NCBI GenBank assembly: GCA_051294375.1 | Contig: JBJCIZ010001674.1 | Location: 1 to 64,000 of the forward strand | DNA from: Paraspadella gotoi | Lineage: Eukaryota; Animalia; Chaetognatha | Direction: 5' to 3' | Length of the DNA: 64,000 bases | Shown here: positions 23,390-50,595 of the stretch, piece after piece | Numbering within the stretch: position 1 is the stretch's first letter | Layout of the letters: each line of letters opens with the position of its first letter | Notes under the pieces: generated by a model | Database searches by the model: none | What the model was told of the DNA's origin: nothing | Seen by the model: the letters and a program-made list of their open reading frames with translations, nothing else | Translations under genes and position numbers: made by a program

Positions 23390-26242
23390 CCCCTCGCTAT
23401 CTCAGGCATGCCAACATGCATACGTGGGATACCCGAGCATGTCTAGAAATAATCATCAATATATCCGGGCGCAGGTGGGTGATGGAAAGTAGAGAAGGAA
23501 AAATTTTTAACGCTGAGTATGCAAAAAAATGCGCCAGGACTTACTTGCTAAACTTAAAATAAACTTTGCGATTCCATAAATCAGACCGTCTTCCTCAAAA
23601 AAAGCCGACCAAAACGGAGAGACGAGCAACGGCGGCAGACGACAACTGACCGGCGCTAGCTCTCTTCCACACGCGGTTGTACTTCAAGTCATGATGTTTG
23701 AAGCGAAACAGTGAGTACAAGACATCGAATATGATCAAAATTGTACGAGATGGTAAATACAATAGCCGTAATAATCAAATTCTTCTGTCTGACTCAAAAC
23801 AGGCTTCGAAGTTCGATTCGTACCGATCGGGTCACGCGTACAGCCGAAGATACCGCTCATCAGCCCGCTCATCGCGAAGCGCCGTGGTTACGCGTTACCG
23901 AAGCGTACCAAACCTGACTGCGAAATAAAAACGGGTAAATCCTGACTCGAACGGCGTGTTTCAGTACACCCCGTTTAAACAACCATGATTAATACAAACG
24001 AAAACGCTAAAAAACTGGACTTCTTTCTGATTCTAAAAACACTTGCCCCCGCTAACTGAAAAAATGGGACACATGAAAGGATCCTAGAAATATAAATTGA
24101 CACAAGGCAGGGGGAATGAGGACATTGGGAGCTAAATATCATCTAACGACTAACTGACAAAAAAAAAAAATTAGAATTTTCGGTTTACTAGCTTCCGGGC
24201 ATATTACTAACCAAATAACCTAAATATAAGCAAAACAATATGGCCTTTATCGAAACTAAAGTCGGTTATAACTGACCCCTGGTGGCCGACTTTAAACCGA
24301 TATTTTTTCACTTAGGTCGAGACGCGAAGACCGGTTGTAACTGACCCCGGGTGGCCGATCTTTCTGAGCCCGACATATGTTACACCCGCGACTTCCGAAA
24401 GTAGCCAATAAAGGAATGAAGCGTGAATAATAATGGAAGCCCGAAATTATAAGGATAATACGGCACCGCCGACCAATTCGAATTCTAAAGAACCGAAAAG
24501 GTAAAAAGAAAAAATAAAGGTTGTCGATCTTGGGTAAGCGCATATACACCCGCTTACCGAAATGCAACTTTCCGCCCCCGCAGGATACGAATATATGGAT
24601 CTCGAAGTTTAATTTCGACGGCTAAGAACGAAATCATACCCTTCGACCTTCAATCGAACTTGGCGAGGCAAAAAGGTTGCCTTTCATGGTCACGAACAAC
24701 CTGAGGCGAATAACACAATCTCAAATATTCAAATTTTCCTTACCGCAGGTGGCCGCATCAGAGAAACGTCAAGCATATCTTCAGGTCATGTCACAAGCAT
24801 TCTTCATAGCGTCCCTCTACGATTCTCCATGAGGACCCCGTATAGGAGACCAATCTGAAGATCTGTGTATATTCGACTCCTTACCAAAAATATTAGAGAC
24901 GCACAACCGTACTACGCACAAAAACCTTAGGACTACTCCTACGGGAAAAATAGTAAATTGAAACCATCGAATTGTACTAATATCTTCGCCGTCGAATCTT
25001 TGTAAAAATCTCTTCTTCTTGAAATGATACTATTCTTGAATAAAGCTGTGAAATACACTGAAAAACAAAAATATTAACATTCCTTATACTACCTTATGTC
25101 GTAGTAGGTTAGGCAAAATAAAAATATTAGACTAGACCTAAAAAACGAAATCAATACCTAAACAAAAACCCGAAAATACCGAAACCTAATAATCTTCCCT
25201 AAAAACGTAACCATTCTAAAATGCGCTGAGGAAGTTATTTTATTGGTTTACCTTACTTTAAGCATCCGGAATGCCGAACAACGAGATCAAGTATTTCGGG
25301 CAAGGCAAAGCAGTATGACTACGGATGGGCGAGACCCCTCAAACCCTGCCAAAAAGTAAGCAAAGCAATAATATGATAAACCTTCTCGTCGCTGGCTCCC
25401 TACCCAGCTCCCCTGCTAACTTATTTTAAGGGAGTAAAACACAAAAAAGTGGGGCGTACAATATACCAAACGAATACGAAACGAATACTTGCCATCAGAG
25501 AACGCGTCGTAAACGTTCGGATAGGTAGTACTTAAAGGGTTTTCGTAAAGGTTGTTCGACGCCCAAGAAGGAGGCGAAGTCAAACAAACAACTTTCGTTA
25601 CCGATTAAGAAAAATATTCCGAGGGGTTTCCGGCGACTTTTCCCAACCAACTCTGTGCGGAATCGGCTATACGTAAGGAAGAATCGCCCGCCATAGCCGG
25701 CGCGCAGGGAGACAGTCTTGAACAGAGGAGAGGTCACTCCGAAAGCCTAAATATTTGTGATATTTTAGCGTCACTCGCGAGACTCCGTCCGTCTAGAGAC
25801 ATTCGAAAGTCGAAAGCAAAAAATTTTATAAAAGCTGAAAAACGTAGGGGGCAAATTATGAATAATATAAACGATCAAAGAGAGATAATCTATATTATTC
25901 TACCTACTCTAAATTGTCGCCATCTCTCTTGAGCTATCCAAAAAATACCCAAAAGCTAAATAAATACAANNNNNNNNNNNNNNNNNNNNNNNNNTACTGC
26001 GAAAATTAAAAAATATAAAATTAATTTTTTTTACAAATTAATGTTCACTGATGGTATGTTGTTCATAATTAACTTTTAGAATTTTCGTATGTAACTATGC
26101 CTTAATATACAGTCCTGTGCAAAAAAAGCATACTATGGTGGACTAAAACCCACTAACCGTTCATCAGCGGCCATTTGAGTGCCAGGAGCAAGTCATTCGC
26201 CTCCTCAACCAAAGGTCCGGGTTCTAGCCCGGTGGTCGTCTG

Positions 26243-26320
26243 GGCAGTTTTAAAAGAGGGACGGGCGCTTAACCCGCCTGTAACATGTGTTACAGCCTGA
26301 TCCGAAGCTCAGGGATTGCT
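26243..26320 (+). ncRNA. Twister ribozyme, type P5 (diverged copy)
   Basis: GGCAGTT..GAGG-GA-CGGG-CGCT-TAA-CCC-GC-CTGTAACA-tg-TGTTACAG-CCTGA-TCCGAAGC-TCAGG-GATTGCT; P5 substitutions keep pairing through G-U. Confidence 0.8.
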
Positions 26321-26323
26321 TTT

Positions 26324-32100: not shown

Positions 32101-33059
32101 TTTAGAGATAAATAATTCGACACCTAGGTAAAAAAATGAAATGTGAATTTATTTTAACGTAACATCGAAGGGAAAATGCGTGCGAGAATAAAATAACAAT
32201 GCCTTTTGTATGAACTACTTTGTTTACCAAAGTAGGAATGTGAAAGGGAAATATTATTGACATTTTTGTAATTTACAGAATTCTTTCTCACAAACTTCAC
32301 TCAGCCATGCTACTAAAATTTCAAAAAACAAAATAATATTTCACAGAATGTGAAGCGCTTCTTAACGCGCGACTTAGATAATCCGAGATTATCGCAAATA
32401 AAACAAATCTAAGTTTTATCTCTATTCTTCTAGAGTGCCCTAATTTGTGCCCTAATTAATTATTGAATTCAAATCCGTGTTCAACTGCTCTCAAATAAAA
32501 ATCTTTGGAAACAAAACAGTTCTAACATGTAAAACACCTTAACTATAACCTTATATTCTTAGAACCATGTAATAAAGCAGAAATAGTAACAACATTTTGA
32601 GATAATACAATTTCCAATCTCAGGTACAAATATTCATGGTAGTAGTAGGACAAGTTGGCAAGTAGGCAAGTTCAAGGAAGGAGTTCAAGAAGGAGATGGT
32701 TAAAACTACAAAAAATAGACAATGCTAAATTAGTATTAAATAAACCTTAAACTTAAAAGTAACATATATAACCTAAATACAATTCAATATAAATCCAATG
32801 TAAACTAACCTTCAATTTGGGTTCCAGAATAGAGAATAAAACATTGGCAGCTTTATAGTACAAAACATTATTTAAAGTATTTTCCTTTTCATTTTACACA
32901 CGTGTTTTGAATTGAGAGTAAAAGTCTTGTGAAAGATTAAACTGAAACACACTCGTTAGTTAGCTCTCGTAACAGCTGATCGCGGGGAAGAGTTAATTCA
33001 GATATTCAACGGAAACGCATCACGCATAAAACGGGGTAAAACCGAAAAAGAATAGTACT

Positions 33060-33357
33060 TTCCACAACAAGCAAAATTCATTGAAGAGACACAACAGACT
33101 TCTCCCTACGGGAGGGGGGGATGTATGGTGGACTAAAATCCACCAAGCATTCATCAGCGCCATTGGTGCCCGGAGCAAATCATTGCGCCTACCATCCCAA
33201 AGGTCCGGGGTTCTAGCCCGGTGGTCGCCTAGCAGTTAAGAGGGACGAGCGGGCGTTAACCCGCCTGTAACATGGTGTTACAGCCATGATCCGAAGCTAG
33301 GAACTGCTTATATTGAACGTTCTGTCATTAACACATCAAATAATTACTGTCTCTTCA
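33060..33357 (+). mobile_element. 3' half of the twister-LTR element: internal end, PPT (33110-33123) and 3' LTR (33124-33357) with an error-laden twister at 33231-33308
   Basis: GGGAGGGGGGGATG|TATGGTGGAC...CTCTTCA|TGAC. Confidence 0.85.
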
Positions 33358-33374
33358 TGACTTTTGTTTCTAAA

Positions 33375-33820
33375 AGTGGGGAATCCCGTGTGGGAGGAAA
33401 TCAGTGTGGGAGGAATTCCGCATGGGAGGAATCCCATGTGGGAGGAATCCATGTGGGAGGGAAATCAGTGTGGGAGGAATCCCGTGAAGGGAGAATTCCC
33501 GGGTGGAGGAATCCCGTGTGGGAGAAATCCGTGTGGAAGGAATCTCACGTGGGAGGAATCCCGAGTGGGAGGAATCCCCGCGTGGGAAGAATCCCATCTG
33601 GGAGGAATCCCGTGTGGGAGGAAACACGCTTGGGAGGAATCCCACGTGGGAGAGATTCTTATGGGGGGAGGATTTCCATGGGGAGGAATCCCGTGTGGGA
33701 AGGATTCTTGGGGAGGAATTCCGTGTGGAAGGAATCCCATGGGGAGGAATCGCCAGCGTCGGGAGGAATCCCGTGTGGGAGGAATCCAGTTGGAGGAATT
33801 CTCGTGTGGGAGGAATACCA
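33375..33820. repeat. 16-bp tandem minisatellite (GTGGGAGGAATCCCGT)n; second copy at 44415-44860
   Basis: About 27 degenerate units; explains the overlapping spurious ORFs. Confidence 0.95.
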
Positions 33821-35174
33821 CAGCCCACGTGCATTATATAACCTTAAAAAGAGCATTGACTTACCATAAAAAGAAAGAGTATGGCAAGCATATTTTTTGT
33901 TAGATCGAAAAATTGTTAGCTTTTGAAATTTTTTAAGAGTGTGTGAACTATAAATTGAAACTGCTTCTTTCATATATTCGCGATTTCATTGTCCAACTAC
34001 AATTAATTGCCTATTCCTTGTGAAATTTTATAGTGTCATATTGGTTTGAATATTTTAATTTTTTTAAACCCTGAGTAATTTATAGTTATCATTCCGGAGA
34101 AGCGATGCCTTTTTATTCGCGTATAATTGTTTAGTTTCGTTTAGATCGATAGAATCATTTGCAAATCACGCATAAAACGGGGTAAATCTTTTCGCATCGA
34201 GTAAAACAAAAGATTTCGAAATCTTCTTAACCGTTTTTTTAAATTTCAGAGTTTTTTTTTCAGGATTTCTTTTTTCTATATTTTTTTCCTGTAATTTTTT
34301 TTTAAAAAGAATTAATTACTAATTACTAAGGCTTTTATTAAATAATCTATTACAAAATATCGAGAATGGTTTATTTCTTTAAACCTTTCATTCAAAATTC
34401 AAGTCATTGCTATGGTAAGAAAGAAAGAATAAGAGGAGGATGAAGCAGATGAGTAGGGTGAAAATCAGAGAGAGAGAGTAGAGAATAAGAAGAAGAGAGG
34501 TCGCGTGTTGATGCTGCCACAAGAGTTAGCAATCTTTGCAGGTATAGTTGGCGCGGTCAAACCAGAGTCATCAGAATATTTCGGAGAATCTAAAAATATT
34601 ATGGTAAAAAGACAGATTAAATCAAAAAAGAAAGTAAAATCAGTTAAATTCTGTCAAGATTCTTTCAAGAAGACTGTTCTCATTTTCGTGCGGGTCCATA
34701 CGCGTGAGACATATCCATGAATTTCAGTAACGAGTGAAAGGTCTTTTCATCCTCTTGAATTCGCCGTATGCGAACAAAAATTTGTTCAGGGAAAATTAAA
34801 TAAAACGAAGAAAAGAATAACTTAATTCGCGGAATTCCAACTCGGTAAACGATAAAAATATTCTTTTTCGGTTTTACCCCGGCGTTTTGATGCGTGATGC
34901 GTTATCCGTTGAATATCTGAATTAACTCTTTCCGCCGGCGAATCAGTGTCTACGAGAGCTAAACTAACGAGTGTGGTTTCAGTTTAAATCTTCAGCAAGA
35001 CTTTTACTCTCAAATTCAAAACAGCGTGTTAAAAATGAAAAGGAAACTACTTTAAATTATGTTTTGTACTATAAANNNNNNNNNNNNNNNNNNNNNNNNN
35101 TCTTAATATTAAATTTAAAGTAAATCATAAAAATTAACCGATCTTAATGTTAACCGTTAAAATATTAGTTCAAC

Positions 35175-38100
35175 TTTATTGACAAGCATTCTTGCTACTT
35201 ATGTTGGTGACGAGAATGACTGCTTCAGGAATGCGCCTACAAGTGGATTGCATCATCGATACTGAGCTGACATCAGCATCATCCCAGAGATGAAGTTGGT
35301 CAGGGATGCCAAAAGTTTGTTGGAGGAAGACTTGATGTCGCCTATTGATGTTGCAGGCTTCTCGGGCACTTGAAAGAAAACATATCACAAAGAAAGTCAA
35401 AGCAAATCTACATTTTTTCGCGTGGAAAAACCTTTCTGGGAACTTTTCATCTGGCTCCCATAAGTTCAACTTATTGATTCTTGCGGCAGCAACGTCTTCA
35501 ATGATCAGAGGATCCTAACTCCTTCAACAAGAGAATTGAGGTACTTTGTTGGAGATATTAATTTACCATGTGAAGAGATCAAACTTATGATTGCAAGTCA
35601 TGAACATGACAGTGAGAGTGGAAATGGGCACTAAAGGCATATCGTCAAATTGCTTGGAGATTCAGGCGTTTCAAACACTTATGCGTGTACCAGGAAACAA
35701 CACATTCATCCAAGAAGCATCACATGGTGGAAGTTACTAAGGACCGGAAATCAACAGGGAAAGCATTCATTTTTGTCGTCTATGCTGAGCCTACTGACAA
35801 AATGATGCATTCGGTTATCAGTTTGTGGAAATTCAATCAAGACTTACAAAACATCATGAAAACAAAAGAAGAATTGTTCAGGGTAGAAATGAAAAATTTT
35901 GGGTGAGGTGGTTCGAACATGAAGGAAAAAGAGCCGTTGGATTCAGAGTCTTACTGTATTTCACATAGTCTCTGGTGAGGATTTGGCTGACCTTCAGAGG
36001 AAACCTCTGTTTTCTATGTCAATGAAAAAATCAATCTGTTCCATTTTCTTCCATACATGCTAACTAACATGCATAATCGTGGAGTCAATTTGTATCTTAT
36101 TCAAGCAAGGGCAAATCTCGTGAAAGATGAATTTCTTGAAGATTGATGTTGATGTTGAGAAAGAGGGACAAAAAGGAGCAACTATGCACCAATTGGCGAG
36201 GGACAAAAAGCATTCTGAAGCAGTTCAAAATTATGGAAAATTATTCAAACCTGAACTTTCACTGGTACGAGTGAGAATGAATCCAATCAAACTCAAATCT
36301 TTCAACAGACATTCCCATAGGACAAAGTGATAAAACACTCTTACGCCAAAGACCCCTTATCAAGCAGAACAGATTGACAAGGCTTCTCAAACATAGGAGT
36401 CATTACTGAGATGACAAATTCAGATGATTAGTTTGGTTGTCAAACATTCACATAATTCTGGAGAGCAGATATGTTGCTACAGAGAGAGAAGGTCACCAAG
36501 AGCAGAATGGTGTTGATTTACAGAAAAAATGAATCAAGCTCTGATGCACTCATTCACTTCCCCACTTACCTGAAATGGTAAAGAGGTCAGGCAGGGAAAT
36601 TGCCATGTGATACAACAGTTTTCTACCAACTTGATCTGCGGATTCTATCACTCAACTGTTGATAGATGAAGAATTCATCTAAAAAGTTCACTGGGGATTT
36701 TTTTGTTTCTGTAAAGTTCTTTCAGATACCTCAGATGTCCATGGCGGATCAGTGTTGTCCTGGGTATCGCTCAACAATGGCGTGCGAGACATGTTTTTGA
36801 CATTTTCACAAAAGCATCAAAGCCCTTCATTGATGACGAAAAAAATCCCTCTGACGTACATTTTTCCCATTCATCGGCTAAATCTGTTGGACCGGGACGG
36901 AGAGCTATCCTCTAGCGGCGTGACGGCGCCGCAAAAAGCGTTGGAGAGAAGCGTTGACGAAGCAAGAGAAAAACTTCAGAATGACATTTTGCCCATTGAT
37001 GTGAACACGTTCCTTCAAACGCCGGAAAACGCGAAAATCGAGAGATATCACATCGCATCTAAAGATTGGAGAGATCTAGTCATGAAGAGCGAACTACATT
37101 TTTCCCTGTTTCTCCGCAGAAAAAATTCAAAGGAATGTGGATCAGATGCGTGCGGAAATTTTCCAAAATAGCAACGAATTCATTCAAGTGCCATTTCTCT
37201 AGTCTCTGGAGAATCAGAGTATTCCCTGGAGGATTCATTCTTCATTGTCGTTTCAAGCCATCCGCGAGAGTGCCCTAATCAAAAATTTTGGTAGATAACC
37301 CAGATGAGAACGACTGGCACCGCGCATGCGCACAAGCCCAGCTCTAGCGGAGCGCCCTCTTTAGCCCTTTTGGTCTGCATCGCCGGATCTGCTTCTGCAA
37401 ATGCGGGGCGCCTGTTGAAGGGCAATTCATCTTATTTTTCGCCGCAGACACAGATATCGTCAACGTGGATTATTAACTTTAGTATTCTTATTCTCTACTA
37501 AAGGAACTTTATTGTATTTCGTTACAATTGCTTCTAATTCGAGATTTTTGTATTTTTATATTGAATAGATAGACAAATCGTTTTAAGATTGTTTAATAGA
37601 AGCATATTACTCAAAATATTATTTATAAAACAATACAGCTTAATACCAGAAACGCAAAAGAATGGATTATCAAGTGGCTTTGTCTCGTCTTGGCTTCTTT
37701 CGTACTTTTATCTGGATTGACCAAGTCAGAGAGGAGGCTGCCCTCAGAAAAACGCGACGGCAGAGAAAACGAGAGAGGGAACTGGATCACTCTTACAATC
37801 TTACCTTCAAGGAAACGTAAACATAAACTCTTAATAGAAATATTTGTTTAGAATTACTTTGTTTATTGCCTGCGATTTTAACTCTGCATAATCTACATAT
37901 TTTGTATCGTTATATTATCATCCATCCCAAAGTGTTCTTAATGTTCATAAACTCTCCTATCTCGTCTTCTCCCTTAATAAAACCACGCCTACTTCCTTCT
38001 TTATTGTGGTGACAAGGACTGGATTAAGACTGCCACTTACGCCTTCCTTAAAGAAGACCACTAAAGTCTACCAAAATTACGCTACCGCGATCTACTCAAC

Positions 38101-41100
38101 AAAAAAAAAAAGAAAAAGCACCGCTAAACCCCTAACCAAAAAAAGAGATTACGTCAGGTCAGTCGCTACATAAACCTCCGCGAATTGAACATACTCAAAA
38201 AAATATATGTCGCAATCTTTTAAGCTTTGCATTGCGTCATTTATATATAAAATAAATTTAAAAAAAAAATAAAATAAAAAAAAATAAAAAAGATTTACGC
38301 AACAAAAAGCGAAGCACAAAAAACATATTAAACGAATAAAATCAAGACTGAAAAATTTTAAGAATAACATACCGCATTTGTGCGAATTTAGGAAGTGCGT
38401 TTAAAATGTAGCCTGAGTGCAAAAAAAAAAAAAAGAAAAGAAGAAAACCTCAATCTCTCAAAAAAAGAGAATATCTCCAGGAAAATAAAAATTTTAGCTA
38501 AAAAAAAAACAAAAAAAAAAATTTCTTCAACATTTAATGCTCATATAGAAGCAATTCTAATATTCCCAGACTAGTAAAATTAGAAGTTTAAATTCCAACG
38601 GCCCGCCTGCCCGCCTGTAAAAAAAAAATGAACGCCAAAACTTAACAAAAGATAGCCTACCGGACTTTCCGCAATGACCATGTGTTATTTTCTCTCTGAG
38701 CCGGTCTCCACGTGACCCAGCATTGCCCTGCAAACACAAAAAGACAAACTCGATGCGCTTCACCTGTTAATGGCTATTCAAAATAAAAAGTAAGCCCACG
38801 CCGAAGTCGCAACAAACAACAACAACCAAAACCTCCCTCTGTCTCTATCTCTCTCCCTTTGAAATCCCAGCAAGAAATGCTCTCTACACATAAAAAACCG
38901 GTACCAAACAAAGAACCTGCACGGGCCAAACAAATGGCCCAATCCGGACCAAATGAAAGTCAATTTGAAATGCAAGCTTCTTAAGCTCATTTCTCACGCA
39001 GCACCACCCCTACTCTATTCCCCGCGCTCAATAAGTCGAATGAAGATGAAATAATTTTTAAGAAATGCGATCTCTACTATATAGTAGCTTTTTCACGCCC
39101 ACTTAACGAAGTTCGATAGACCGCACATTGGAGTAAGTAAAAACTTATTTCAAAATAACCTTACTCATGAGGCGCCGTCTTTCAATTTAGAAGCCCCGCA
39201 AAGCCACTCCTCCTATATCTTCAAAGAAAATCACAAACCAAACGCTTGGCAAATGGATATTGTACCCCATTCACATATAAGACGAAGCTCCTCAACTGTG
39301 AAACATGTTATTTGATCAGGCAGAAAAAAAACTATGATTTGTACAATTAAGGTGCTATGATATGAAATGGCATCATTTTAAAGCTGAATTTGATCCGTTT
39401 ATCCCGAGAAAGAAAATAAACAGAAGAAAAAGGAAAAAAAGAAAGGGAAAGAGAAAAAGGATAGAAGAAAAGAAATAAAGAGGAAAAGACGTTTAGCAGG
39501 TGAATTATTCATGGCACAATTTAAAGTACTGCAAACCATTCAAAATCTTAAGGTACTGAGCGACAAAATAGATGTAAAAACGAATTAAAAACGTATGTAG
39601 AAAAGACCAACAGAGAGAAGAAAAAGAGCTCGAATCAACTAGCCACAAAACCGGAGAAGAACAAAAAACAGGCAAATACCACCTAAGAAACTTACCATAG
39701 AACCAGGTATTTGCCGAAATATTCTCTGGGCCAGCCTGAACTTTAGGAAATAAGAAAAAAGGCCCAGCAACTCTCCTGCCTACAAAACACTCAACTAAAC
39801 CAAAACCATAAGGGATTCAGAGAATACAAAACATGATGCCTTACAATCCAAAACACTTGCATCTGACAGATTTAACAACAAAACAGATATGACCCCCAAT
39901 ATTGTTATACCTAGCAGAACAAAAGATACAAACAGAAGTACACGTAAAGAACCATCAAAGCAAACAACATTTAAAAAAGACAGTTTTTTCAATCACAGAA
40001 ACTGTAAAAAAAAATGAAATTCTTCCTCCAAAGCAATACAGATGGCAACACAACTGAATTGACCCCACAAATAGCAATACAATGCAACACAAAACTGAGG
40101 AACCCCAAGCAAAAAGTCTACAGGTTCTACCTGACTTCTCCAATTGTTTAAAACTCTCTCAGATACCCTAAGATGAAATTTCTAATCTTTATCCAAACTT
40201 ACGCCAAGCTGGCCGTTGAACAATACACAAAAAATTTGAGAATAAATCAAAGCACAAGGAAAACTTTTACAAAAGAAAAGAAAGACTCGAACCAAAAGTC
40301 TTATATGATCAGCTATTTAATCATTCAAAATAACATAATGCGACCGTCCACAGCAACAACCAAAAGTTCTCTCCCCAGGTGTAAATTGACTTGAAACAAA
40401 AATTCAATTCCATAGAAGGACCAACCTGAGAAAACTTACTAACTGAAATGTCAAGCTTTGAAGAAATCTTAGAGGTAAACAAATCTCAAAATATAAGCAG
40501 CATAATCAGGAAAGGTTGAGAAAAAAAAGCACTAAGAAAACAAGCAGAATCCTATCAAATCATCCGCAAGAATGATGGGATCTTAAATCAAAACCACATC
40601 GAATCCACCAAAACCTAAAAATCAGAATACAACCAGCTAAACCATTGGCGAAAGCCTAGAAGGCACTACATGTTCTCTAAACAAATTAAACAGATGAATC
40701 CATTACACTACATGAGCCAGCTGGGTGATGGAGCCAATACCTCCATGGTGGACATCCAACCTTCTCCCCAAGCCTCTTCATCCACACCCTGAGGGAGGAC
40801 TTATGAGGCTCCGACAATGGGGCCAATAATATAGACCATAGGAGATGGTATGAATAGAAGACTTGGGTATAATAACACGCTCGACAGCAGTTCTCCAAGA
40901 TGACACGAGAAGGTCTCGCAAATGGAGAGGGGGGGGTGGACAACGCAGAAGAATGGTATATCAAGTGGCTTTGTCTCTCTTGACCTTCTTCTTCTTTTAT
41001 TCGTGAGTTGACCAATCAGGAGAAGGAGGTCTTCCCTCAGGAAGCGACGGCAGAGTAGTTAAAGCGAGAGAGGGAACTGGATCACTCTTCAACTTACTTC

Positions 41101-41284
41101 AAGAAACTAACATCAAAACCCTTATGGAATATTTGTTATATTGTTTATTGCCCTGCCATTTCTCTGCATAATCTACATATTTTGTATGTTAATTATTTCA
41201 TCATCCCAAAGTGTTCTATATGTCAATAAAACTCCTCCTATTTTTTCCCTTAATTAAACCACGCCTACTTCCTTCATTGATACA
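35175..41284 (+). mobile_element. Indel-rich second copy of the 47163-55300 Gypsy element, missing about 2.3 kb of RT/RH/IN at about 36838
   Basis: Reverse-complement match to 47163-55300. The junction at about 36838 joins sequence equivalent to about 53685 with about 51350. Confidence 0.85.
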
Positions 41285-42258
41285 ATGGATGAAATTTAAT
41301 GGCGAATTAATGAAGATTGATGGAAGCGAGCGCCTTTTGTTGTTTTGTTTTTTCTATTAAACGTGGGAGACGCGCACGGCCGTTTGTGCGGTCTTTGGCG
41401 TGGCTGTAGAACGAATGTATAGAATGGGTGACCACTTGTAATTTCACTGTATAATTTATTAATATATATTATTCAATCATTATTGTACTCACATAGTAGA
41501 CCTTCTCAAGTTTGTAGAATCCTTCAGAATCCTTCATTTTTGAACACTGGCGGACTACAGTGATTGAGAGCTGTAAGGGAGTAAGTGAGAAAATGGTCGA
41601 AACTATGCAATTAATTTATATGTGATATTAATCAAAAATAAAATTAATTTTGATTACATATATGTCATATTAATTCAATTTTTTGAGATTTCAGGTTCTT
41701 TGAATCACGGTTAGAGAAAGGCACCGATCACCCCTGACACCTGCGAAATTCTTAACGTCGCTTGAAAATGTTAAGATTCCCATGGAGTGTGAGAGGGGGA
41801 TCGCTGTATGTGTGAGAAAAAAAGTTTTTTTATGATTGTGATAACTGATCAATAATAAATATTGCGTATTTAAACCAATGTTCAAATCAAAAACGATCAA
41901 TAATGCAATAAAACTTATTTCACAAAAATTGTAAAAAGTTTTTTTCTGTTTTTTCCTTAAAAGAATTATGATATTTTATTCCGTATTGAATTATTGTTTA
42001 AAAATTATTGCATTTCGAATTCAACTTATTTGTGCATTTAGGAAAACTTATTCTACAAAATTGAATTCGTACCGGTTATGATTTTTGTATTGAATTTTTT
42101 GCTTACTATGATTATTTTCGTCTGCATAATGCATAATTTCATAATGATATGCGTGAATAAAATCACCCAACCATGTCATCAGCGGGCCATTGGTGCCGGA
42201 GGCAATTCATTCGCCTCCCAAACCCAAAGGTCCGGGGTTTCTAGCCCAGTGGTCGCCT

Positions 42259-42335
42259 AGCAGTTAAGAGGGACGGGTGCGCTTAACCCGCCTGTAACAT
42301 GGTGTTACAGCCTGATCCGAAGCTCAGGGACTGCT
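42259..42335 (+). ncRNA. Twister ribozyme, type P5 (5' LTR copy)
   Basis: Same motif as 46132-46207 with a minor change in the P1 loop. Confidence 0.8.
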
Positions 42336-42367
42336 TATATTGAAACGGTTCTGTCATTAACACATCA

Positions 42368-43951
42368 GGTTCCGCCATTACAAAGTTTGCATTTAGGAAA
42401 AAAAACGACTCTTTCCCACTATTGCTTTCATTTTGTTACTTACCAATGTTGATTAACTTGTGTGCCCACAACCACAAATTGGGCCCAACGAAGGATTGGT
42501 GTTAGAAACATCTTCACCCGTTTCTATTGCATAAAGAGTACCATTTTGTGCAACTTTTAGGAAAAAAAATTATGTCCATTTTTGTCCATTTTTACTTACG
42601 ACCTATGATTTTGATGCTTAAGGAAAGTTGAGAAAAATTTTTTACTTTGGAAATCCGTTCTTCCTTTATCTTTTTACCCCTGGGTAAATTTATTGCTTAA
42701 ATCATTTATTAGTTGCCCTATGAATTAATTTTTAAAGTTAACAAGTCAAAAAAGTTGCAGTTTCAGTCGTTTATCATTAAATTGTAACAAAAAATAAATC
42801 AAATTGGTTGAAATAACAGAAAATATAGGCATAATTAAATAAGCTTTAAACACCTACAAAAATTATCAAAAAACTTTTGACCGTTTAGCCACAAATAATT
42901 TAAAGACAACTTTTAATTTGTGACCTTTTTGTGACTTGCATTTATTTTTTGATAAAGAGAGTATTTTTTAACTCATTTATTAGTTTTTTAAAAGATTAAG
43001 GTACATACTGACGTTATTAAACAAAAAAAACCGCATTCTTTTAATCCCAATGGAAAAGCGTCAGTACTTTTTTTTTCTCAAATCGACAGATTTTTGCGGA
43101 AAATTTCCGCAAAAATTGGTCGATTTATTAAATTCTGCCTTAGGCAACCAAAAAATTTGAATAAAATCCTCCCATTTTACCCGTTAATTTCTTTTTTTAT
43201 AATGCATAAGAAATATTTTTATTTGGCTCAATGTAAATGTAGTGAGAGGAAAGACGGAAAGGGAGAACAAAAGAAAAGGAGGGTCGGGAGAGAATGAAAG
43301 AGGGGGGCAAATGGAAAAAAGCTAATGTCGAAAAAAAAATAGTGAGACAAATAAAAGGTAGGAAAAGAGCCGAAAAATGGAAAGAAAAAGAGGGGAAAAG
43401 AAAAGCCGGGAAAGAATGAAGAAGAGAAAAAGGTGAGGAAAGTGGAAAGAGTGGCAAAAAAAGTAGGGCCAAAAAAAAATGGTAATTGACGCGTGAGAAG
43501 TAGGAGGCAAAGATGGGAAAGAAAAATAACAAATAAAAGAGAAGAAAAAGAGATAAAGAAAAAAGAATCAGGAAAGGCTATGAGGGGAAAAAAATTGTCA
43601 TAGATAATGTGGCGTCCTCCTGAATAGGTTTTTGTGTAAGTCCAAAGACGTGAAGCATTCTTATGAGGAATTCAATCTTTTAAAAGTTATCTTACCATAA
43701 AAAATTAATCCATACTTATTTCTAAAATTAATGATATGATTGAACAATCATTGAAGAAATCATGTTCTTACCGTATTTTTAACTCATAGAAATTTACCTG
43801 GAAAGTACTTATGTCATAAGAAGAAGATAACTATAGCCTCCGTTTTTTAAATAACGAAAAGCTTCATTCAACCAATGAGATCAAGAAGATGCGTTAATTA
43901 TTTGAAGTTTCAGATTTCGTTGTCTAAAAGACACGGATTGTATGCGGAACC
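42368..43951. mobile_element. Non-autonomous TIR DNA transposon with 4-bp TSD (ATCA), inserted in the twister 5' LTR
   Basis: ATCA|GGTTCCGCCATTACAA...TTGTATGCGGAACC|ATCA. The empty site is visible in the 46 kb LTR copy. Confidence 0.85.
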
Positions 43952-45959
43952 ATCAATAATTACTGTCTCTTCATTGGTTCAGCCCGACTTCCCAAAAACA
44001 CAACAGCAACAACAACACTTTTCAGGCGACATTTGCTTCAACCTGGCAAAAGCACTTCTGCCATCAACACATTCAGGCAACATGCCTCAACTTGATTGAC
44101 GAACTTTACAACCAACAACAACAATTCATTAAGAGACACAACAGACTTCTCCCTACGGGAGGGGGATGATGGTGACTAAAATCCACCAAGCATTCATCAG
44201 CGGCCATTGGTGCCGGAGCAAATCATTCGCCTACCATCCCAAAGGCGGGTTCTAGCCCGTTGGTCGCCTAGCAGTTAAGAGGGACGGGGCGGCTTAAACC
44301 CGCCTGTTAAGCATGGTGTACAGCCTAGATCCGGAAGCTCAGAACTGCTTATATTGAACGTTCCTGTCATTAACACATAAAATTACAGTCTCTTCATGAC
44401 TTTTGTTTCTAAAAGTGGGGAAATCCCGTGTGGGAGGAATACAGTGTGGGAGGAATTCCGCATGGGAGGAATCCATGTGGGAGACACCCATGTGGGAGGA
44501 AATCAGTGTGGGAGGATCCCGTGAAGGGAGGAATACCGGGTGGAGGAATCCCGTGTGGGAGAAATCCCGTGTGGAAGGAATCTCACGTGGAGGAATCCGA
44601 GTGGGAGAATCCGCGTGGGAAGAATCCCATCTGAGAAGGAATCCGTTGTGGGAGGAAACACGCTTGGGAGGAATTCCCACGTGGGAGGAATTCTATGGGG
44701 AGGAATTCCATGGGGAGGAATCCCGTGTGGGAGAAATTCCTTGGGGAGGAATTCCGGTGGGAGGAATCCCATGGGGAAGGAATCCCAGCTCGAGGAACAT
44801 ATCGGCAGTTGTGGGAGGAATCCAGTGTGGGAGGAATCCAGTTGGGCAGGAATCTCTTTGGGATACCACCAGCCAGCCGTGCCATTATATAACCTTAAAA
44901 AGAGCATTGACTTACCATAAAAAGAAAGAGGTATGCAAGCATCTATTTTTTGTTAGATCGAAAAAATTGTTAGCTTTGTGAAATTTTTTAAGAGTGGTGT
45001 GAACTATAAATTGAGAAACTGCTTCATTTCAATATATTCGCGATTATCATTGTCCAAAGTACCAATTATTGCCTATCCTTTGTTAAATTTTATAGCTGTC
45101 AATTGGTTTGAAGTATTTTAATGTTTTTTAAACCCTGGAGTAATTTTATAGTATCATTCCGGAGAAAAGCGATGCCTTTTTATTCGCGTATATATTGGTT
45201 TAGTTTCGTTTAGATGCGATAGAATCACTTGCAAATCACGCATTAAAAACGGGTAAAATCTTTTTTCGCATCGAGTAAACAAAAGATTTCGAAATCTTCT
45301 TACCGTTTATTTAAATTTGCAAGTTTTTTTTTCAGGATTTCTTTTTTTATATTTTTTTCCTGTAATTTTTTTTAAACAGAATTAATTACTAATTACTAAG
45401 CTTTTATTAAGATAATCTTATACAAAAATAATCGGAAGGTTTATTTCTTACTAAACCTTTCAATTCAAAATTCAAGTCATTGCATGGTAAGAACGAAAGA
45501 ATAAGAGCTGAGGATGAAGCAGATGAGTTAGGGTGAAAATCAGAGAGAGAGAGAGCAGAGAAGAGAGAAAACAAGAAAGAGAGTCGCTTGTGTTGATGTT
45601 GGCCAACAAGAGTTAGCAATCTTTTTGCAGGTATAGTTGGCGTCCCAAACCAGAAGTCATCAGAATATTTCGGAGAATCTAAAATTTATGGTAAAAGACA
45701 GATTGAAATCAAAAAAGAAAAGGTAAAATCAAGTTAAATTCTGTCGCCCCAAGAAATTCTTTCAAGTAAGACTGTTCTTCATTTTTGTGCGGGTCATTAC
45801 GTGAACATATCCATGAATTTCAGTAACGAGTTGAAAGGTCTTTTCATCCTCTTGAATTCGCCTATGCGAACAAAAATTTGTTCAGGGAAAATTAAATAGA
45901 AACGAAGAAAAGATAAACTTAATTCGCGAATTGCCAACTCGGTAAACTTATAAAAACTA

Positions 45960-46314
45960 AGTTCGTCATCAAGTTGAGGCATGTTGCCTGATGTGTTGAT
46001 GGCAGAAAGTGCTTTGCCAGGTTGAAGCATGTCGCCTGAAAGTGTTGTTGTTGCTGTTGTGTTTGGAAGTCGGGCTCACCAATGAAGAGACAGTAATTAT
46101 TGATGTGTTAATGACAGAACCGTTCAATATAAGCAGTCCCTGAGCTTCGGATCAGGCTGTAACACCATGTTACAGGCGGGTTAAGCGCCCCGTCCCTCTT
46201 AACTGCTAGGCGACCACTGGGCTAGAACCCCGGACCTTTGGGTTGGGAGGCGAATGACTTGCCTCCGGCACCAATGGCCGCTGATGAATGGTTGGTGGAT
46301 TTTAGTCCACCATA
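45960..46314 (-). mobile_element. 5' half of the twister-LTR element (cleanest copy): LTR 46314-46083, PBS 46081-46069, first part of the internal region
   Basis: TGAC|TATGGTGGAC...CTCTTCA-T-TGGTGAGCCCGAC; the PBS matches 12/13 nt of the tRNA-Trp PBS TGGTGACCCCGAC. Confidence 0.9.
46132..46207 (-). ncRNA. Twister self-cleaving ribozyme, circularly permuted type P5; predicted cut between 46183 and 46182 (U^AA)
   Basis: AGCAGUU(P5)-AAGAGG(P2')-GA-CGGG-GCGCU-UAA-CCC(P2)-GC-CUGUAACA ugg UGUUACAG(P3)-CCUGA-UCCGAAGC-UCAGG(P4/L4)-GACUGCU(P5'). Both pseudoknots (UCCG/CGGG and GC/GC) can form. Confidence 0.85.
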
Positions 46315-47162
46315 GTCATATGAATTATGCATTATGCAGACGAAAATAATCATAGTAAGCAAAACAATTCAATACAAAAATCATAACCGACGAATTCAAT
46401 TTTTAGAATAAGTTTTCTAAATGCACAAATAAGTTGAATTCGAAATGCAATAATTTTTAAACAATAATTCAATACGGAAATAAAATATCATAATTCTTTT
46501 AAGGAAAAAAACGAAAAAAAACTTTTACAAATTTTTGTGAAATAAGTTTATTGATTATTGATCGTTTTTGATTTGAACATTGGTTAAATACGCAATATTT
46601 ATTATTGATCAGTTATCACAATAAAAAAACTTTTTTCTCACACATACAGCGATCCCCCTCTCACACTCCATGGGAATCTTAACATTTTCAAGCGACGTTA
46701 AGAATTTCGCAGGTGTCAGGGTGATCGGTGCCTTTCTCTTAACCGTGATTCAAAGAACCTGAATCTCAAAAGATTTGATTAATATGACATATATGTAATC
46801 AAAATTAATTTATTTTTGATTAATATCACATATAATTAATTGCATAGTTTCGACCATTTTCTCATTACTCCCTTACAGCTCTCATCACTGTAGTCCGCCA
46901 GTGCTTCAAAAAGAAGGATTCTGAAGGATTCTACAAACTTGAGAAGGTCTACTATGTGAGTACAATAATGATTGAATAATATATATTAATAAATTATACA
47001 GTGAAATTTACAAGTGGTCACCCATTCTATAATTCGTTCTACAGCCACGCCAAAGACCCGGCACAAACGCCGTGCGCGTCTCCCACGTTTATAGAAAAAA
47101 AAAACAACAAAAGGCGCTCGCTTCCATCAATCTTCATTAATTCGCCATTAAATTTCATCCAT

Positions 47163-47501
47163 TGTATCAATGAAGGAAGTAGGCGTGGTTTATTAAGGGA
47201 AAAATAGGAGGAGTTTTATTGACATAAGAACACTTTGGATGCTGATAATTAACATACAAAAACTATGTAGATTATGCAGAGAAAGGCAGGCCAATAAACA
47301 ATATAACAAAATATTCCATAAGGAGTTTGATGTTAGTTTCTTGAAGTAACTTAGAAGAGTGATCCAGCTTCCCTCTCTCGCTTTCTCTGCACCGTCGGCT
47401 TTCCTGAGGAAGCCTCCTCTCTGATTGGTCAATCAGAATAAAAGACGAAAGAAGCCAAGAGAGACAAGCCCACTTGATAATCCATTCTCTGCGTTGTCAC
47501 A
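47163..47501 (-). repeat. 3' LTR of the Gypsy element (339 bp)
   Basis: TGTGACAA...TTGATACA ends on minus, preceded by PPT GTGGGAAGGGGGG (47502-47514). Confidence 0.8.
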
Positions 47502-48835
47502 CCCCCCTTCCCACTTGCGAGACGCTTTCTCGTTGTCATCGAGAATGCCGTCGAAGCCGTGTTTCATATCCCAAGTCTCTATTCATCATCTCCCTATGTC
47601 TTATTATATTGGCCCCTGTCCGAGCTCATAAGTCCTCCTCAGGTGTGATGAAAAGAGGCTGTGAGAAGTTGATGTCCACCCATGGGAGGTATTGCTCCAT
47701 TCACCCAGTGGGTCATCCCTGTAGTGTAATGCGATTCAATCTGTAATTTGTTTAGAGAGACATGTAGCTGCCTTCTAAGCTTCGCCAATGGCGTTTAGCT
47801 CGGTTGTATCTGATTTTTTAGGTATTTCTTTGGTGGCATTTGATGGTCGGTTTGCATTTTAAGATCCATCAGTTTTGGGATGATTCTTGATAGGATCTGC
47901 TTGGTTTCTAGTGTTTTTCTTCTTTCTCCAACCCTTTTCCTGATTATGCTGCTGTACTAATTTTGAGATTTGTTTCTACTCTAACGATTTCTTCAAGCTT
48001 GACATTTCATAGTAAGTTTTCTCAGCTTGGTCTTTCTATGGAATGAATTTTTGTTTCAAGCTTTACACTGCGGGGAGAGACTTTTGGTTGTTGCTGTGGG
48101 ACGGTTTCCATTATGTTATTTTTGAATGATAAATGCTGATTCATTGATAAGACTTTGGTCGAGTCTTTCTTCTTTGTAAGTTTCCTTGTTGCTTTGATTG
48201 ATTCTCAAATTTTTGTGTATGTTCAAGGCCAGCTTGGTCAGTTGGTAAATTAGAAATTTCATCTAGGGTATCTGAGAGAGTTTTAATCAAATTTGAAGAA
48301 GTCAGGTAGAACCTGTAGACTTTTGCTTGGGGGTTCCTCAGTTTGTGTTGCATTGTATTGCTATTTGGGGTTCATTCAGTTTTGTGTTGCCATTGTATTG
48401 CTATTTGGGAGTTCATCAGTTTGTGTTGAAACTGTCTTTTTAAATGTTTTGCTTTGTGGTTCTTTAATGTCTTCTGTTTGTATCTTTTGTTCTGCCTATT
48501 ATTACAATATGGGGATTATCTGTTTGTGTTGAAAATTGTCAATGCAAGTGTTTTGGATTGTAAGGCATCTGTTTGTATTTCTGAATCCCTTATGGTTTGG
48601 TTTAGTTGAGTGTTTGTAGCAGGAGAGTTGCTGGCCTTTTTCTTTTCCTAAGTTCAGGTGGCCCAGAGAATATTTCGGCAAATACCTGTTCTATGGTAAG
48701 TTTCTTAGGTGGTATTGCCTGTTTTTGTTCTTCTCCGGTTTGTGGCTAGTTGATCGAGCTCTTTCTTTCTTCCTCTGTGGTCTTTTCTACATCGTTTTTT
48801 AATTCGTTTTTACATCTATCTTTGTCCTCAGTACC

Positions 48836-49471
48836 TTAAGATTTTGAATGGTTTGGTACTTTAAATTGTGCCATGAATAATTCACCTGCTAAACGTCTTT
48901 CCTCTTTATTCTTTTCTTCTATCCTTTTTTCTTCTTCCTTTCTTTTTTCTTTTTCTTCTTTTATTTTCTTTTCTCGGGATAAACGATCAAATTCAGCTTT
49001 AAAAATGATGCCATCTTCAATATCATAGCACCTTATGTACAAATCATAGTTTTTTTCTGGCCTGATCAAATAACATGTTTTCACAGTTGAGGAGTTCGTC
49101 TTAGATTGAATGGGTACAATATCCATTTGCCAAGGTTTGGTTTGTGATTCTATTTGAAGATCATAGGAGGTGCTTGGGCTTCTAAATGAAAGACGGGCCT
49201 CATGAGTTAAGTTATTTTGAAATAGTTTTACTACTCCAATGTGCGGTCTATCGAACGTTGAGGGGGCTGAAAAGTACTTATAGTAGAGATCGCATTTCTT
49301 AAAAATTATTTCATCTTCATTGCTTATTGGCGCGGGAATAGAGTAGGGTGGTGGGTGAGAAATGAGCTTAGAAGCTGCATTTTCAAATTGACTTTTCATT
49401 TGGTCCGGATTGGCCATTGTTTGGCCGTTGCAGGTTCTTTTCTGGTACCGGTTTTTTATGTGTAGGAGCAT
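48836..49471 (-). CDS. Gypsy accessory ORF with a RanBP1-type (PH-like superfamily) domain and coiled coil; probably continues through frameshifts to about 47745
   Basis: NEDEIIF...LYY...IGVVKLF...EARLSFR...LYIRC.DIED...FKAEF parallels RanBD landmarks EDE.LF...KL(F/Y)...G.VKLL...RL.MR...LAIRF.N.E.A..FK..F (recognised by eye). Confidence 0.55.
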   Translation of the reverse strand: MLLHIKNRYQKRTCNGQTMANPDQMKSQFENAASKLISHPPPYSIPAPISNEDEIIFKKCDLYYKYFSAPSTFDRPHIGVVKLFQNNLTHEARLSFRSPSTSYDLQIESQTKPWQMDIVPIQSKTNSSTVKTCYLIRPEKNYDLYIRCYDIEDGIIFKAEFDRLSREKKIKEEKEKRKEEEKRIEEKNKEERRLAGELFMAQFKVPNHSKS

Positions 49472-50274
49472 TTCTTGGCTGGGATTTCAAAGGGAGAGAG
49501 ATAGAGACAGAGGGAGGTTTTGTTGTTGTTGTTGTTGCGACTTCGGCGTGGGCTTCTTTTTATTTTGAATAGGATTAACAGGGAGCGATCGAGTTTGTCT
49601 TTTGTGTTTGGGGGCAATGCTGGGTCACGTGACGACGCGGCTCAGAGAGAAAAACACATGGTCATTGGGAAAGTCCGGTAGGCTATCTTTTGTTAAGTTT
49701 GGCGTCATTTTTTTTTACAGGGGGGGCGGCCGTTGGAATTTTAAACTTCTATTTTTACTAGTCTGGGAATATAGAATTGTTCATATATGAGCATTAAATG
49801 TTGAAGAAATTTTTTTTTTTGGTTTTTTTTTTTTAGCTTAAATTTAATTTTCCTGGAGATATTCTTTTTTTGAGAGATTGAGGTTTTCTTCTTTTCTTTT
49901 TTTTTTTTTGCACTCAGGCTACATTTAAACGCACTCCTAAATTCGCAAAATGGGTATTGTTTTTAAATTTTCAGTCTTGATTTTATTCTTTATAATATCG
50001 TTTTTTGTGGTTCGTTTTTGTTGGTTAAATCTTTTTTATTTTTTTTTATTTTATTTTTTTTTAAATTTATTTTTATATAAATGACGCAATGCAAGCTAAA
50101 AGATTGCGACATATATTTTTTTTGAGTAGTCAATTCGGGAGGTTTATGTAGGATGACGTAATTCTTTTTGGTAGGGTAGCGTTTTTTTGTTTTTTTTTTT
50201 GATGGAGGGTAGCGTAATTTTGGTAGAGTGGTCTTCTTAGGAGGCGTGGTGAGTCTAATCCAGTCCTGTCACCA

Positions 50275-50595
50275 CAATGAAGGAAGTAGGCGTGGTTTAT
50301 TAAGGGAGAAATAGGAGGAGTTTTATTGACATAAGAACACTTTGGGATGATGATAATTAACATACAAAATATGTAGATTATGCAGAGAAATCGCAGGCAA
50401 TAAACAATATAACAAATATTCTATAAGGAGTTTGATGTTAGTTTCTTGAAGGTAAGTTGAAGAGTGATCCAGTTCCCTCTCTCGTTTCTCTGCCGTCGGT
50501 TTTCTGAGGGCAGCCTCCTCTCTGATTGGTCAATCAGAATAAAAGACGAAGAAGCCAAGAGAGACAAGCCACTTGATAATCCATTCTTTGCGTTG
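50275..50595 (-). repeat. Internal LTR-derived repeat lacking 5 nt at each end, followed by PBS-like TGGTGACAGGACTGG
   Basis: Direct repeat of 47168-47496; no upstream PPT. Confidence 0.8.

What the first reader, a model, noticed from the sequence alone, without database searches (positions are those of the whole stretch)
42148..44396. Candidate new system: a miniature non-coding LTR retrotransposon with a twister ribozyme in each LTR (twister LTR-retrozyme)
Seen: after removing a nested DNA transposon, the element is about 232-bp LTR + PBS (TGGTGAGCCCGAC) + about 195-bp non-coding spacer + PPT (GGGAGGGGGGGATG) + LTR, about 660 bp in total, with 4-bp TSD TGAC. Each LTR holds a sense-strand twister motif. 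Five LTR copies occur in the window (26.1, 33.1, 42.1, 44.2, 46.1 kb), from two independent insertions. Established: LTR retrozymes described in plants use type-III hammerheads, animal retrozymes are non-LTR hammerhead repeats, and animal twisters are known mostly from non-LTR element UTRs. Inference: read-through transcripts would be cut once per LTR, releasing a ~425-nt monomer with 5'-OH and 2',3'-cyclic phosphate ends that an RtcB-type ligase could circularise and a Gypsy RT/integrase could mobilise. I know of no description of this combination, but could not search the literature.
Basis: partly seen in the sequence, partly recalled or inferred. Interest (0 to 1): 0.95.

Follow-up and report, generated by a model that had tools for sequence, protein, structure and literature searches.

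The report
Twister-bearing, tRNA-headed mini LTR retrotransposon
This is a tiny, gene-less, very high-copy jumping element, likely of a marine animal, whose terminal repeat carries a tRNA-like promoter followed by a twister-type self-cutting RNA motif that is predicted to cut mainly when the two repeats pair and would release a ring-forming RNA of about 427 bases, a combination not found in print, though cutting and circles are untested.

Summary
The element is real: LTR 232 bp, internal 195 bp with a tRNA-Trp-type PBS and PPT, 4-bp TSD TGAC. Public short-read contigs show sharp ends at 46083 and 46314 with many unrelated flanks in three studies, so it is a high-copy family. Four of the five window copies are one insertion assembled twice. 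The P5-permuted twister keeps every catalytic and pseudoknot residue, with a compensated T1, and 0 of 20,000 shuffles give it. [quoted passage not shown] The P1 linker is self-complementary, as in axolotl hammerheads that cut as dimers. Best model: the two LTR copies of one transcript form a double twister, giving a 427-nt monomer that RtcB circularises and a Gypsy RT/integrase copies. Cleavage, transcription and circles are untested. I found no twister LTR element or animal LTR retrozyme in print; Repbase and Dfam could not be checked.

The parts
42148..42367 (+). 5' LTR, positions 1-214, with tRNA-like head and twister (GA at 42272, cut-site U at 42284, L4 at 42316)
42368..43951 (.). nested 1,584-bp insert with about 15-bp terminal inverted repeats and duplicated ATCA (DNA-transposon-like); absent from the other view of this LTR
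43952..43973 (+). 3' end of the 5' LTR, ending TCTCTTCA
43974..44168 (+). 195-bp non-coding internal region (garbled PBS at start, CAA-rich spacer, PPT at end)
   Evidence: short-read loose ends at 45959 continue as 44103 onward, so this junction is the normal element
44157..44166 (+). polypurine tract (cleaner view at 33110-33121)
44169..44396 (+). 3' LTR (noisy copy; fails the twister descriptor)
44397..44400 (+). 3' target-site duplication TGAC
46083..46314 (-). cleanest view of the 5' LTR, 232 bp, TA...CA ends; matches the family majority in the twister core
46315..46318 (-). 5' target-site duplication TGAC
46209..46281 (-). tRNA-like head, 73 nt: 7-bp acceptor stem, box A (46273-46262), box B (46229-46219), degenerate anticodon arm
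   Evidence: an 11% family variant at 46267 gives a perfect box A
46132..46207 (-). P5-permuted twister motif: P5 7 bp, general-base G at 46194, T1 strand CGG, predicted cut between 46183 and 46182, P2 2 bp plus mismatch or bulge, T2 GC, P3 8 bp, P4 5 bp, L4 UCCGAAGC
46184..46189 (-). self-complementary P1 linker GGCGCU (one G·U pair plus palindromic tetraloop alone; 6-bp duplex between two copies)
46069..46081 (-). primer-binding site TGGTGAGCCCGAC, 12 of 13 identical to the tRNA-Trp PBS of Gypsy-32_NVi and Helenus-2_SyJa
   Evidence: no variant at 2% or more in reads
33124..33357 (+). second view of the same 3' LTR, preceded by the PPT and followed by TGAC
26134..26321 (+). independent, 3'-truncated LTR copy with twister motif, no PPT upstream

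Best explanation
It is a high-copy, gene-less LTR mini-retrotransposon whose LTR holds a tRNA-like promoter module followed by a twister ribozyme motif; it is likely transcribed by RNA polymerase III, is predicted to be cut once in each LTR mainly when the two LTR copies pair, would then be joined into a circle of about 427 nt, and is likely copied and inserted by a Gypsy element's enzymes. Shown: the anatomy, the family's ends and abundance, boxes A and B, the twister residues, the self-complementary P1 linker and the blocked monomer fold (computed). Inferred steps: (1) Pol III starts at the tRNA-like head of the 5' LTR. (2) The first twister folds into the blocked hairpin and waits. (3) Once the 3' LTR is made, the two GGCGCU linkers pair into a 6-bp P1 and the halves swap into two catalytic cores, as in dimeric hammerheads. 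(4) Both U^A sites are cut, leaving a unit-length RNA with 5'-OH and 2',3'-cyclic phosphate and no terminal repeat. (5) RtcB ligates it; the circle holds one twister, which is off, so it is stable. (6) Host tRNA-Trp primes Gypsy reverse transcriptase on the circle and the integrase makes 4-bp TSDs.
For: Sharp family ends with unrelated flanks: loose ends at 46314 in 134, 88, 31 contigs and at 46083 in 76, 53, 28 (runs X1, X5, X9); 162, 125, 32, 63 and 87, 65, 29, 31 (X2, X6, X9, X7); agreement 0.40-0.46; three studies. LTR-internal-LTR joints with 159 letters between occur in X1, X5, X9 and X2. Boxes A+B plus acceptor stem: 0 of 5,000 shuffles (boxes alone 32 of 5,000); the three acceptor/T-stem variants above 10% keep or improve pairing. 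Twister: UAA, G-A, T1, T2 and L4 intact; T1 is CCG/CGG against CCC/GGG in published Schistosoma twisters and the Rfam consensus, a two-sided change; 0 of 20,000 shuffles. The defects lie in P1 and P2, which tolerate imperfections in a test of more than 1,900 natural twisters, while pseudoknots and catalytic bases, intact here, do not (PMC11662667). The linker is fully self-complementary (chance 0.02-0.05; 8 of 227 LTR 6-mers), and swapping halves the on/off gap from 7.7 to 3.8 kcal/mol per core among like-swapped folds. Precedent: axolotl hammerheads with one base pair and a palindromic tetraloop cut as dimers, and RtcB circularises metazoan monomers (PMC7229834); twister pairs plus RtcB make circles in cells (10.1101/2023.07.11.548538); plant retrozyme hammerheads are also predicted blocked (PMC4918200).
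Against: No Rfam twister match, whereas 13 of 20 phage control loci match Twister-P5. In the single copy the T1 strand pairs with the P2/T2 strand at 99% and the first P2 pair has probability 0.0, against 0.5 or more in 39 of 41 phage P5 cores (these were filtered for a perfect P2). The unconstrained two-copy minimum (-69.2) still keeps both blocked hairpins and lies 7.5 kcal/mol per core below the swapped active scaffold; pseudoknot energies are only crudely credited. P2 is one base short in the whole family. A T1-breaking G167A variant reaches 11% in X2 and 2-4% in three other runs. Lack of variants at 11 core positions is not significant (P 0.18). The unit-length RNA folds with only 56% of bases paired (noisy copy), against more than 70% for retrozyme circles. 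ARAGORN calls no tRNA. Absence of T4 runs is uninformative (P 0.47).
Confidence: 0.4

Rival explanations
1. A Helenus-type TRIM carrying a decayed twister. The LTR captured a tRNA-plus-twister unit, the ribozyme lost P1 and a P2 base and no longer cuts, and the element replicates as an ordinary linear Pol III transcript with an R repeat.
For: Blocked fold at 99%; Rfam negative; weak scores with a phage-trained model; short P2 fixed in the family and a T1-breaking variant at 2-11%; described Helenus families need no ribozyme (PMC10886601 has 0 mentions of twister).
Against: All sensitive residues are intact and T1 changed on both sides; the losses fall only in tolerant stems; what is left of P1 is a palindrome, the form used by dimeric hammerheads.
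Confidence: 0.3
2. The twister is active but only trims ends. Slow or single cutting removes the tRNA-like head or the read-through tail, and a linear RNA that keeps a terminal repeat is the transposition template; circles are absent or by-products.
For: Twisters trim 5' ends of RTE elements without circles (PMC8501958); the unit RNA is poorly structured; the element has no clear internal Pol III terminator and a T4 run follows this insertion's TSD.
Against: Identical twisters in both LTRs should often cut twice, leaving no R repeat for strand transfer; a dimer mode would cut both sites together; LTR-borne ribozymes in plants give circles in vivo.
Confidence: 0.2
3. One reading: a monomeric twister in each LTR cuts Pol II read-through transcripts, and the tRNA-like part is incidental.
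For: Box A has one mismatch in this copy, box B one, and ARAGORN calls no tRNA.
Against: Boxes plus acceptor stem at tRNA spacing in 0 of 5,000 shuffles; a family variant perfects box A; the monomer is predicted blocked.
Confidence: 0.07
4. Assembly artefact or chance motif: noisy gap-filling made the layout, and the twister is a coincidence.
For: The region is bounded by 10- to 25-N gaps, copies differ mostly by indels, and the locus is assembled twice.
Against: Short-read contigs from three studies reproduce the LTR, its ends, the PBS and LTR-internal-LTR joints; shuffles give neither motif.
Confidence: 0.03

Closest known systems
Helenus (TRIMp3), Kojima 2024, PMC10886601 (read: main text parts 1-4 of 6, supplement parts 1 and 10 of 11, two motif searches)
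   Same: TRIM under 1 kb; tRNA-like box A/B module in the LTR; PBS and PPT; 4-bp TSD as in animal families; tRNA-Trp PBS as in Helenus-2_SyJa and Gypsy-32_NVi; many LTRs per internal region.
   Different: A twister follows the tRNA module. The paper has no twister, and none of 8 L4-type octamers lay in a twister context in its consensus file (line breaks can hide hits). The LTR begins TA, not TG. The window's LTR and PBS motifs were not found in that file.
Plant LTR retrozymes, Cervera et al. 2016, PMC4918200; review PMC7761336 (passages)
   Same: Non-coding LTR-PBS-PPT-LTR element, 4-bp TSD, a ribozyme in each LTR, predicted blocked fold, Gypsy-type partner.
   Different: Twister instead of type III hammerhead; likely animal host; tRNA-Trp-type instead of tRNA-Met PBS; internal Pol III module; 427-nt unit against 600-1000 nt; less structured; circles not shown.
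Animal non-LTR retrozymes, PMC7229834 and 10.64898/2026.07.22.740005 (passages)
   Same: Small unit-length RNA, RtcB ligation model; the axolotl hammerhead has one base pair plus a palindromic tetraloop and cuts as a dimer.
   Different: Those are tandem repeats with type I hammerheads, lack LTR, PBS and PPT, and are tied to Penelope-like elements.
Type-P5 twister (Rfam RF02684) and Schistosoma T-variants on Perere-3, PMC8501958 (passages, section 17, supplement motif search)
   Same: UAA, G-A, T1, T2, L4, P3, P4, P5 in P5 order; a weak P1 in a retroelement.
   Different: T1 is CCG/CGG; P2 is one base short; P1 is a palindromic linker; it sits in the LTR of an LTR element, not at the 5' end of a LINE; below Rfam thresholds.
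Schistosoma SINE-like hammerhead repeats (PMC6765202, passages) and the engineered Tornado system (10.1101/2023.07.11.548538, passages)
   Same: Pol III-type promoter followed by a ribozyme; two twisters plus RtcB give circles.
   Different: The first uses a hammerhead and has no LTRs; the second is artificial.

Membership tests
TRIM / Helenus (TRIMp3) | Under 1,000 bp, two LTRs, no coding region | tested here: met
   659 bp without the nested insert; 195-bp internal region; no ORF of 120 aa or more in it
TRIM / Helenus (TRIMp3) | PBS and PPT at the ends of the internal region | tested here: met
   tRNA-Trp-type PBS 12 of 13; PPT at 44157 and 33110
TRIM / Helenus (TRIMp3) | tRNA-like sequence with boxes A and B in the LTR | tested here: met
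   one mismatch each to recalled box consensus patterns; with acceptor stem 0 of 5,000 shuffles; ARAGORN default negative
TRIM / Helenus (TRIMp3) | 4-bp TSD (animal families) | tested here: met
   TGAC at one locus, read across two views of the locus
TRIM / Helenus (TRIMp3) | Transcription by Pol III | not testable with these tools
   no RNA data; also unproven for Helenus itself
LTR retrozyme | Type III hammerhead in the LTRs | tested here: not met
   no Rfam hammerhead match; the motif is a twister
LTR retrozyme | Ribozyme in both LTRs, PBS, PPT, 4-bp TSD, non-coding | tested here: met
   layout met; the 3' LTR motif is garbled in this assembly but intact in the family majority
LTR retrozyme | tRNA-Met PBS, 600-1000 nt unit | tested here: not met
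   tRNA-Trp-type PBS, 427-nt unit
LTR retrozyme | Highly paired monomer | tested here: inconclusive
   56% paired on a noisy copy against more than 70%
LTR retrozyme | Circular RNA in vivo | not testable with these tools
   only contigs of DNA-like runs could be laid
Twister ribozyme | UAA cut site, general-base G-A, L4, pseudoknots T1 (3 bp) and T2 (2 bp), P4 | tested here: met
Twister ribozyme | 4-bp P2 | tested here: not met
   CCC against GAGG: 2 bp plus mismatch, or 3 bp with a bulge; P2 defects are reported as tolerated
Twister ribozyme | P1 stem | tested here: inconclusive
   one G·U pair in a single copy, 6 bp between two copies; P1 is reported as dispensable
Twister ribozyme | Rfam twister-P1/P3/P5 score | tested here: not met
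   no match at E<=10; 13 of 20 control loci match Twister-P5
Twister ribozyme | Self-cleavage | not testable with these tools
   needs an in vitro assay

The most novel reading that the evidence does not exclude
The first animal LTR retrozyme and the first with a twister: a natural Tornado cassette in which a tRNA-derived Pol III promoter drives a transcript whose two LTR twisters cut only as a domain-swapped double twister. Only full-length elements would then yield a circle, solo LTRs would stay uncut, and the circle could not re-cut itself.
Probability: 0.3. Interest if true: 0.88.

Novelty: new variant of a known kind. Interest (0 to 1): 0.72.

Why it matters
It would join two separately described kinds, Pol III TRIMs and ribozyme-bearing retrozymes, in one element. 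It would extend LTR retrozymes to animals and to a second ribozyme class, and give twister a role in LTR retrotransposition. A dimer-gated twister would be a new way for this class to work and would explain how a fast ribozyme can sit in a stable circle. With a 427-nt unit and a defined cut site, one transcription gel tests cleavage and the dimer step, and it opens a direct test of whether a Gypsy RT uses a circular template.

Tried and rejected
No whole genome is held, so full-length TSD-flanked copies could not be counted; summed contig depth (LTR about 1,000 times the flank, 2 to more than 10 times the internal region by run and bin) is not a copy number. Sequencing runs: 10 listed, no RNA holder listed; X9 is only guessed as RNA and covers the flank like DNA; X10 (organism B) gave 2 contigs and was not used. 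Rfam: nothing relevant in three searches. Family-specific patterns in metagenome and viral contigs gave 2 and 2 loci, all without LTR similarity. Looking for natural P5 twisters with a 3-nt P2 strand gave 13 loci, and the 4-nt pattern 2; 0 of 15 reached an Rfam gathering score, so no precedent for the short P2 was found. L083 looked like a short-P1 P5 twister but is a tandem of P1-type twisters; it is 1 of 22 rows in model R1. A second register (GAGGG at LTR 117-121, UAA at 143-145), suggested by the top alignment, was rejected: no P2, a T1 mismatch, and its UAA is locked in P3. Twister sister was considered from recall and dropped because T1 complementarity fits twister. Conservation of core positions (P 0.18) and absence of T4 (P 0.47) are not significant. 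Relaxed ARAGORN gives 28 or more calls at 80%, so it is uninformative. Two homolog searches with the Gypsy RT fragment found nothing. The host could not be named: the nearest BEL relatives (35-48% identity) are unnamed ENA assemblies, one cluster member in a SAR324 MAG. The supplement of PMC11662667 could not be read and might list this motif; that of PMC8501958 does not. Searches of earlier findings by sequence, place and full word sets were empty.
Full report
Setting. The window is a gap-filled eukaryotic scaffold with 10- to 631-N gaps. It holds a BEL/Pao element (12.9-18.3 kb) and a frameshifted Gypsy pol (50.4-55.1 kb). BEL/Pao elements are essentially animal (own knowledge). The closest BEL relatives are unnamed ENA assemblies, one cluster member in a SAR324 MAG, so the host is likely a marine animal. 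No genome is held.

Observation. Self-comparison gives the order V' Z V X [insert] Y Z Y' X'. I read this as two versions of one locus that differ by inversion of the 1.85-kb segment Z, merged in one scaffold; whether the inversion is real or chimeric is not resolved. The LTRs at 42.1 and 46.1 kb are therefore one 5' LTR, those at 33.1 and 44.2 kb one 3' LTR, and 26.1 kb is a separate truncated copy. The element is LTR 232 + internal 195 + LTR 232 = 659 bp with TGAC on both sides, and a 1,584-bp insert with inverted ends in one view of the 5' LTR. Copies differ mostly by indels, so 46083-46314 was used as reference.

Independent data. Ten public runs hold the stretch, nine of organism A in three studies (X1-X4 may be the source sample). 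On 45900-46500, 9,772, 2,465, 984 and 2 contigs were laid (X1, X5, X9, X10); on 46055-46325, 12,953, 2,797, 952 and 2,046 (X2, X6, X9, X7). Loose ends pile up at 46314 (134, 88, 31; 162, 125, 32, 63) and 46083 (76, 53, 28; 87, 65, 29, 31) with unrelated flanks. This fixes TA...CA ends and shows many insertions. A joint from LTR start back to LTR end with 159 letters between occurs in X1, X5, X9 and X2: a related subfamily with a shorter internal region. Loose ends at 45959 continue as the window's 44103 onward, so the Y-Z junction is the normal element. Of 33 positions with variants at 2% or more, 20 are C>T or G>A and 11 of these lie at CpG.

LTR positions 34-106 form a 73-nt tRNA-like unit: 7-bp acceptor stem, box A and box B 44 nt apart, broken anticodon arm. 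Boxes alone arise in 32 of 5,000 shuffles, boxes plus acceptor in 0 of 5,000; ARAGORN calls no tRNA. An 11% variant perfects box A, and the common acceptor and T-stem variants keep or improve pairing. The PBS matches the tRNA-Trp PBS of Gypsy-32_NVi and Helenus-2_SyJa at 12 of 13. These are the defining features of Helenus, TRIMs with a tRNA-like LTR and 4-bp TSDs in animals (PMC10886601). That paper has no twister, and motif searches of its consensus file found neither this LTR nor an L4 octamer in a twister context (line breaks can hide hits).

The twister. LTR 108-183 reads P5, AA, GAGG, GA, CGG, GGCGCU, UAA, CCC, GC, P3, P4 with loop UCCGAAGC, P5. Against Schistosoma twisters (PMC8501958 Table 1) and the Rfam consensus, UAA, GC, G-A and the loop are kept and T1 has changed on both sides. 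A descriptor with free but complementary T1 finds 3 of 5 copies and nothing else in the window, 0 of 20,000 LTR shuffles and nothing in 30 window shuffles (written post hoc). Rfam finds nothing. As an independent test I fetched 82 phage loci; 13 of 20 loci tested (19 of these plus L111) match Twister-P5. A model from 22 cores ranks LTR copies 1-4 of 8 hits in the window, weakly (E 0.04-3.7), and aligns the clean copy in my register.

Against a plain monomer. P2 is one base short throughout the family. The P1 linker is 6 nt, against 15-35 nt in 40 of 41 distinct phage cores (41 of 69 contexts passed a filter for perfect P2 and P4 of 4 bp or more). In the nested ensemble the T1 strand pairs with the P2/T2 strand at 99%, 7.7 kcal/mol below the active scaffold, and the first P2 pair has probability 0.0, against 0.5 or more in 39 of 41 controls. 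A T1-breaking variant reaches 11% in one run and 2-4% in three. On the other side, P1 and P2 defects were tolerated among more than 1,900 tested twisters, while pseudoknot and catalytic changes were not (PMC11662667 passages, sections 33 and 35).

Dimer model. Earlier AI notes on Naiad elements suggested palindromic P1 regions (a lead only). Here the linker GGCGCU is fully self-complementary (chance 0.02-0.05; 8 of 227 LTR 6-mers). Two copies can swap halves to give a 6-bp P1 and two cores. This cuts the on/off gap to 3.8 kcal/mol per core among like-swapped folds, before a crude 9.1 kcal/mol of T1 and T2 stacking; but the unconstrained two-copy minimum still keeps both blocked hairpins. Support is partial. 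The precedent is close: an axolotl hammerhead with one base pair and a palindromic tetraloop cuts poorly alone and well as a dimer, and RtcB circularises the monomer (PMC7229834 passages). A double cut leaves no terminal repeat for strand transfer, so a circle would be needed (inference from LTR replication), as modelled for plant retrozymes and as engineered in Tornado. The unit RNA is only 56% paired on a noisy copy.

Odds. Real high-copy TRIM 0.97; Helenus-type module 0.85; twister-derived 0.9; active about 0.65; circle given activity about 0.65; whole route about 0.4. Rivals: decayed twister 0.3, end-trimming only 0.2.

Novelty. Full-text searches for twister with retrozyme, LTR, Gypsy, SINE/tRNA-like or PBS, for tRNA-derived TRIMs, and for Helenus with ribozyme returned no twister-bearing LTR element and no animal LTR retrozyme in the listings or the passages read. 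A July 2026 preprint still has LTR retrozymes primarily in plants with type III hammerheads (10.64898/2026.07.22.740005), and a November 2026 paper cites only the known links (PMC13725137). PMC6765202, PMC6154101 and PMC7761336 were read as passages. The library lacks most subscription papers; Repbase, Dfam and the PMC11662667 supplement were not seen. Verdict: a member of Helenus by anatomy, not of LTR retrozymes as defined, but predicted to work like one; a new variant of a known kind, interest 0.72.

Noticed in passing
window 32852-55339: The locus is assembled twice around a 1.85-kb inversion (33057-34858 = 44103-45956) whose breakpoint lies in the element's spacer; heterozygous inversion or chimera, not resolved.
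   Followed up: partly
window 37651-41279 (and 47168-50595, minus): A 3.6-kb unit between 340-bp direct repeats: the first is followed by TGGTGAC, the second is preceded by a G-rich PPT and ends CTTCA like the TRIM LTR; it lies just downstream of a frameshifted Gypsy pol. A weak lead for the mobilising partner.
   Followed up: partly
window 48836-49486 (minus): 216-aa ORF inside that unit, no Pfam match; atlas leads point to an EVH1/PH-like fold (best score 0.82, a lead only).
   Followed up: partly
window 10203-20356 (minus): BEL/Pao element with about 400-bp LTRs, an open 1,384-aa pol frame, a separate gag-like ORF and an extra 405-aa ORF (11376-12593) with no Pfam match.
   Followed up: partly
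window 42368-43951: Non-coding insert with GGTTCCGC-type inverted ends and a 4-bp duplication; superfamily not identified.
   Followed up: no
window 44405-44865 and 33365-33820: Minisatellite of about 16-bp GGGAGGAATCCC-type units directly after the 3' TSD.
   Followed up: no
window 46083/46314 (run X2): Head-to-tail LTR-LTR joint with four letters between, and many internally deleted LTR derivatives.
   Followed up: no
window 56181-56379 (minus): Two further box A/box B pairs without an acceptor stem, possibly SINE heads.
   Followed up: no
L083 and L101: Phage contigs with two P1-type twisters in close tandem.
   Followed up: partly
L029-L110: Many gut-phage-sized contigs carry P5 twisters with both P3 and a long P1, scoring above the Rfam gathering line.
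   Followed up: partly
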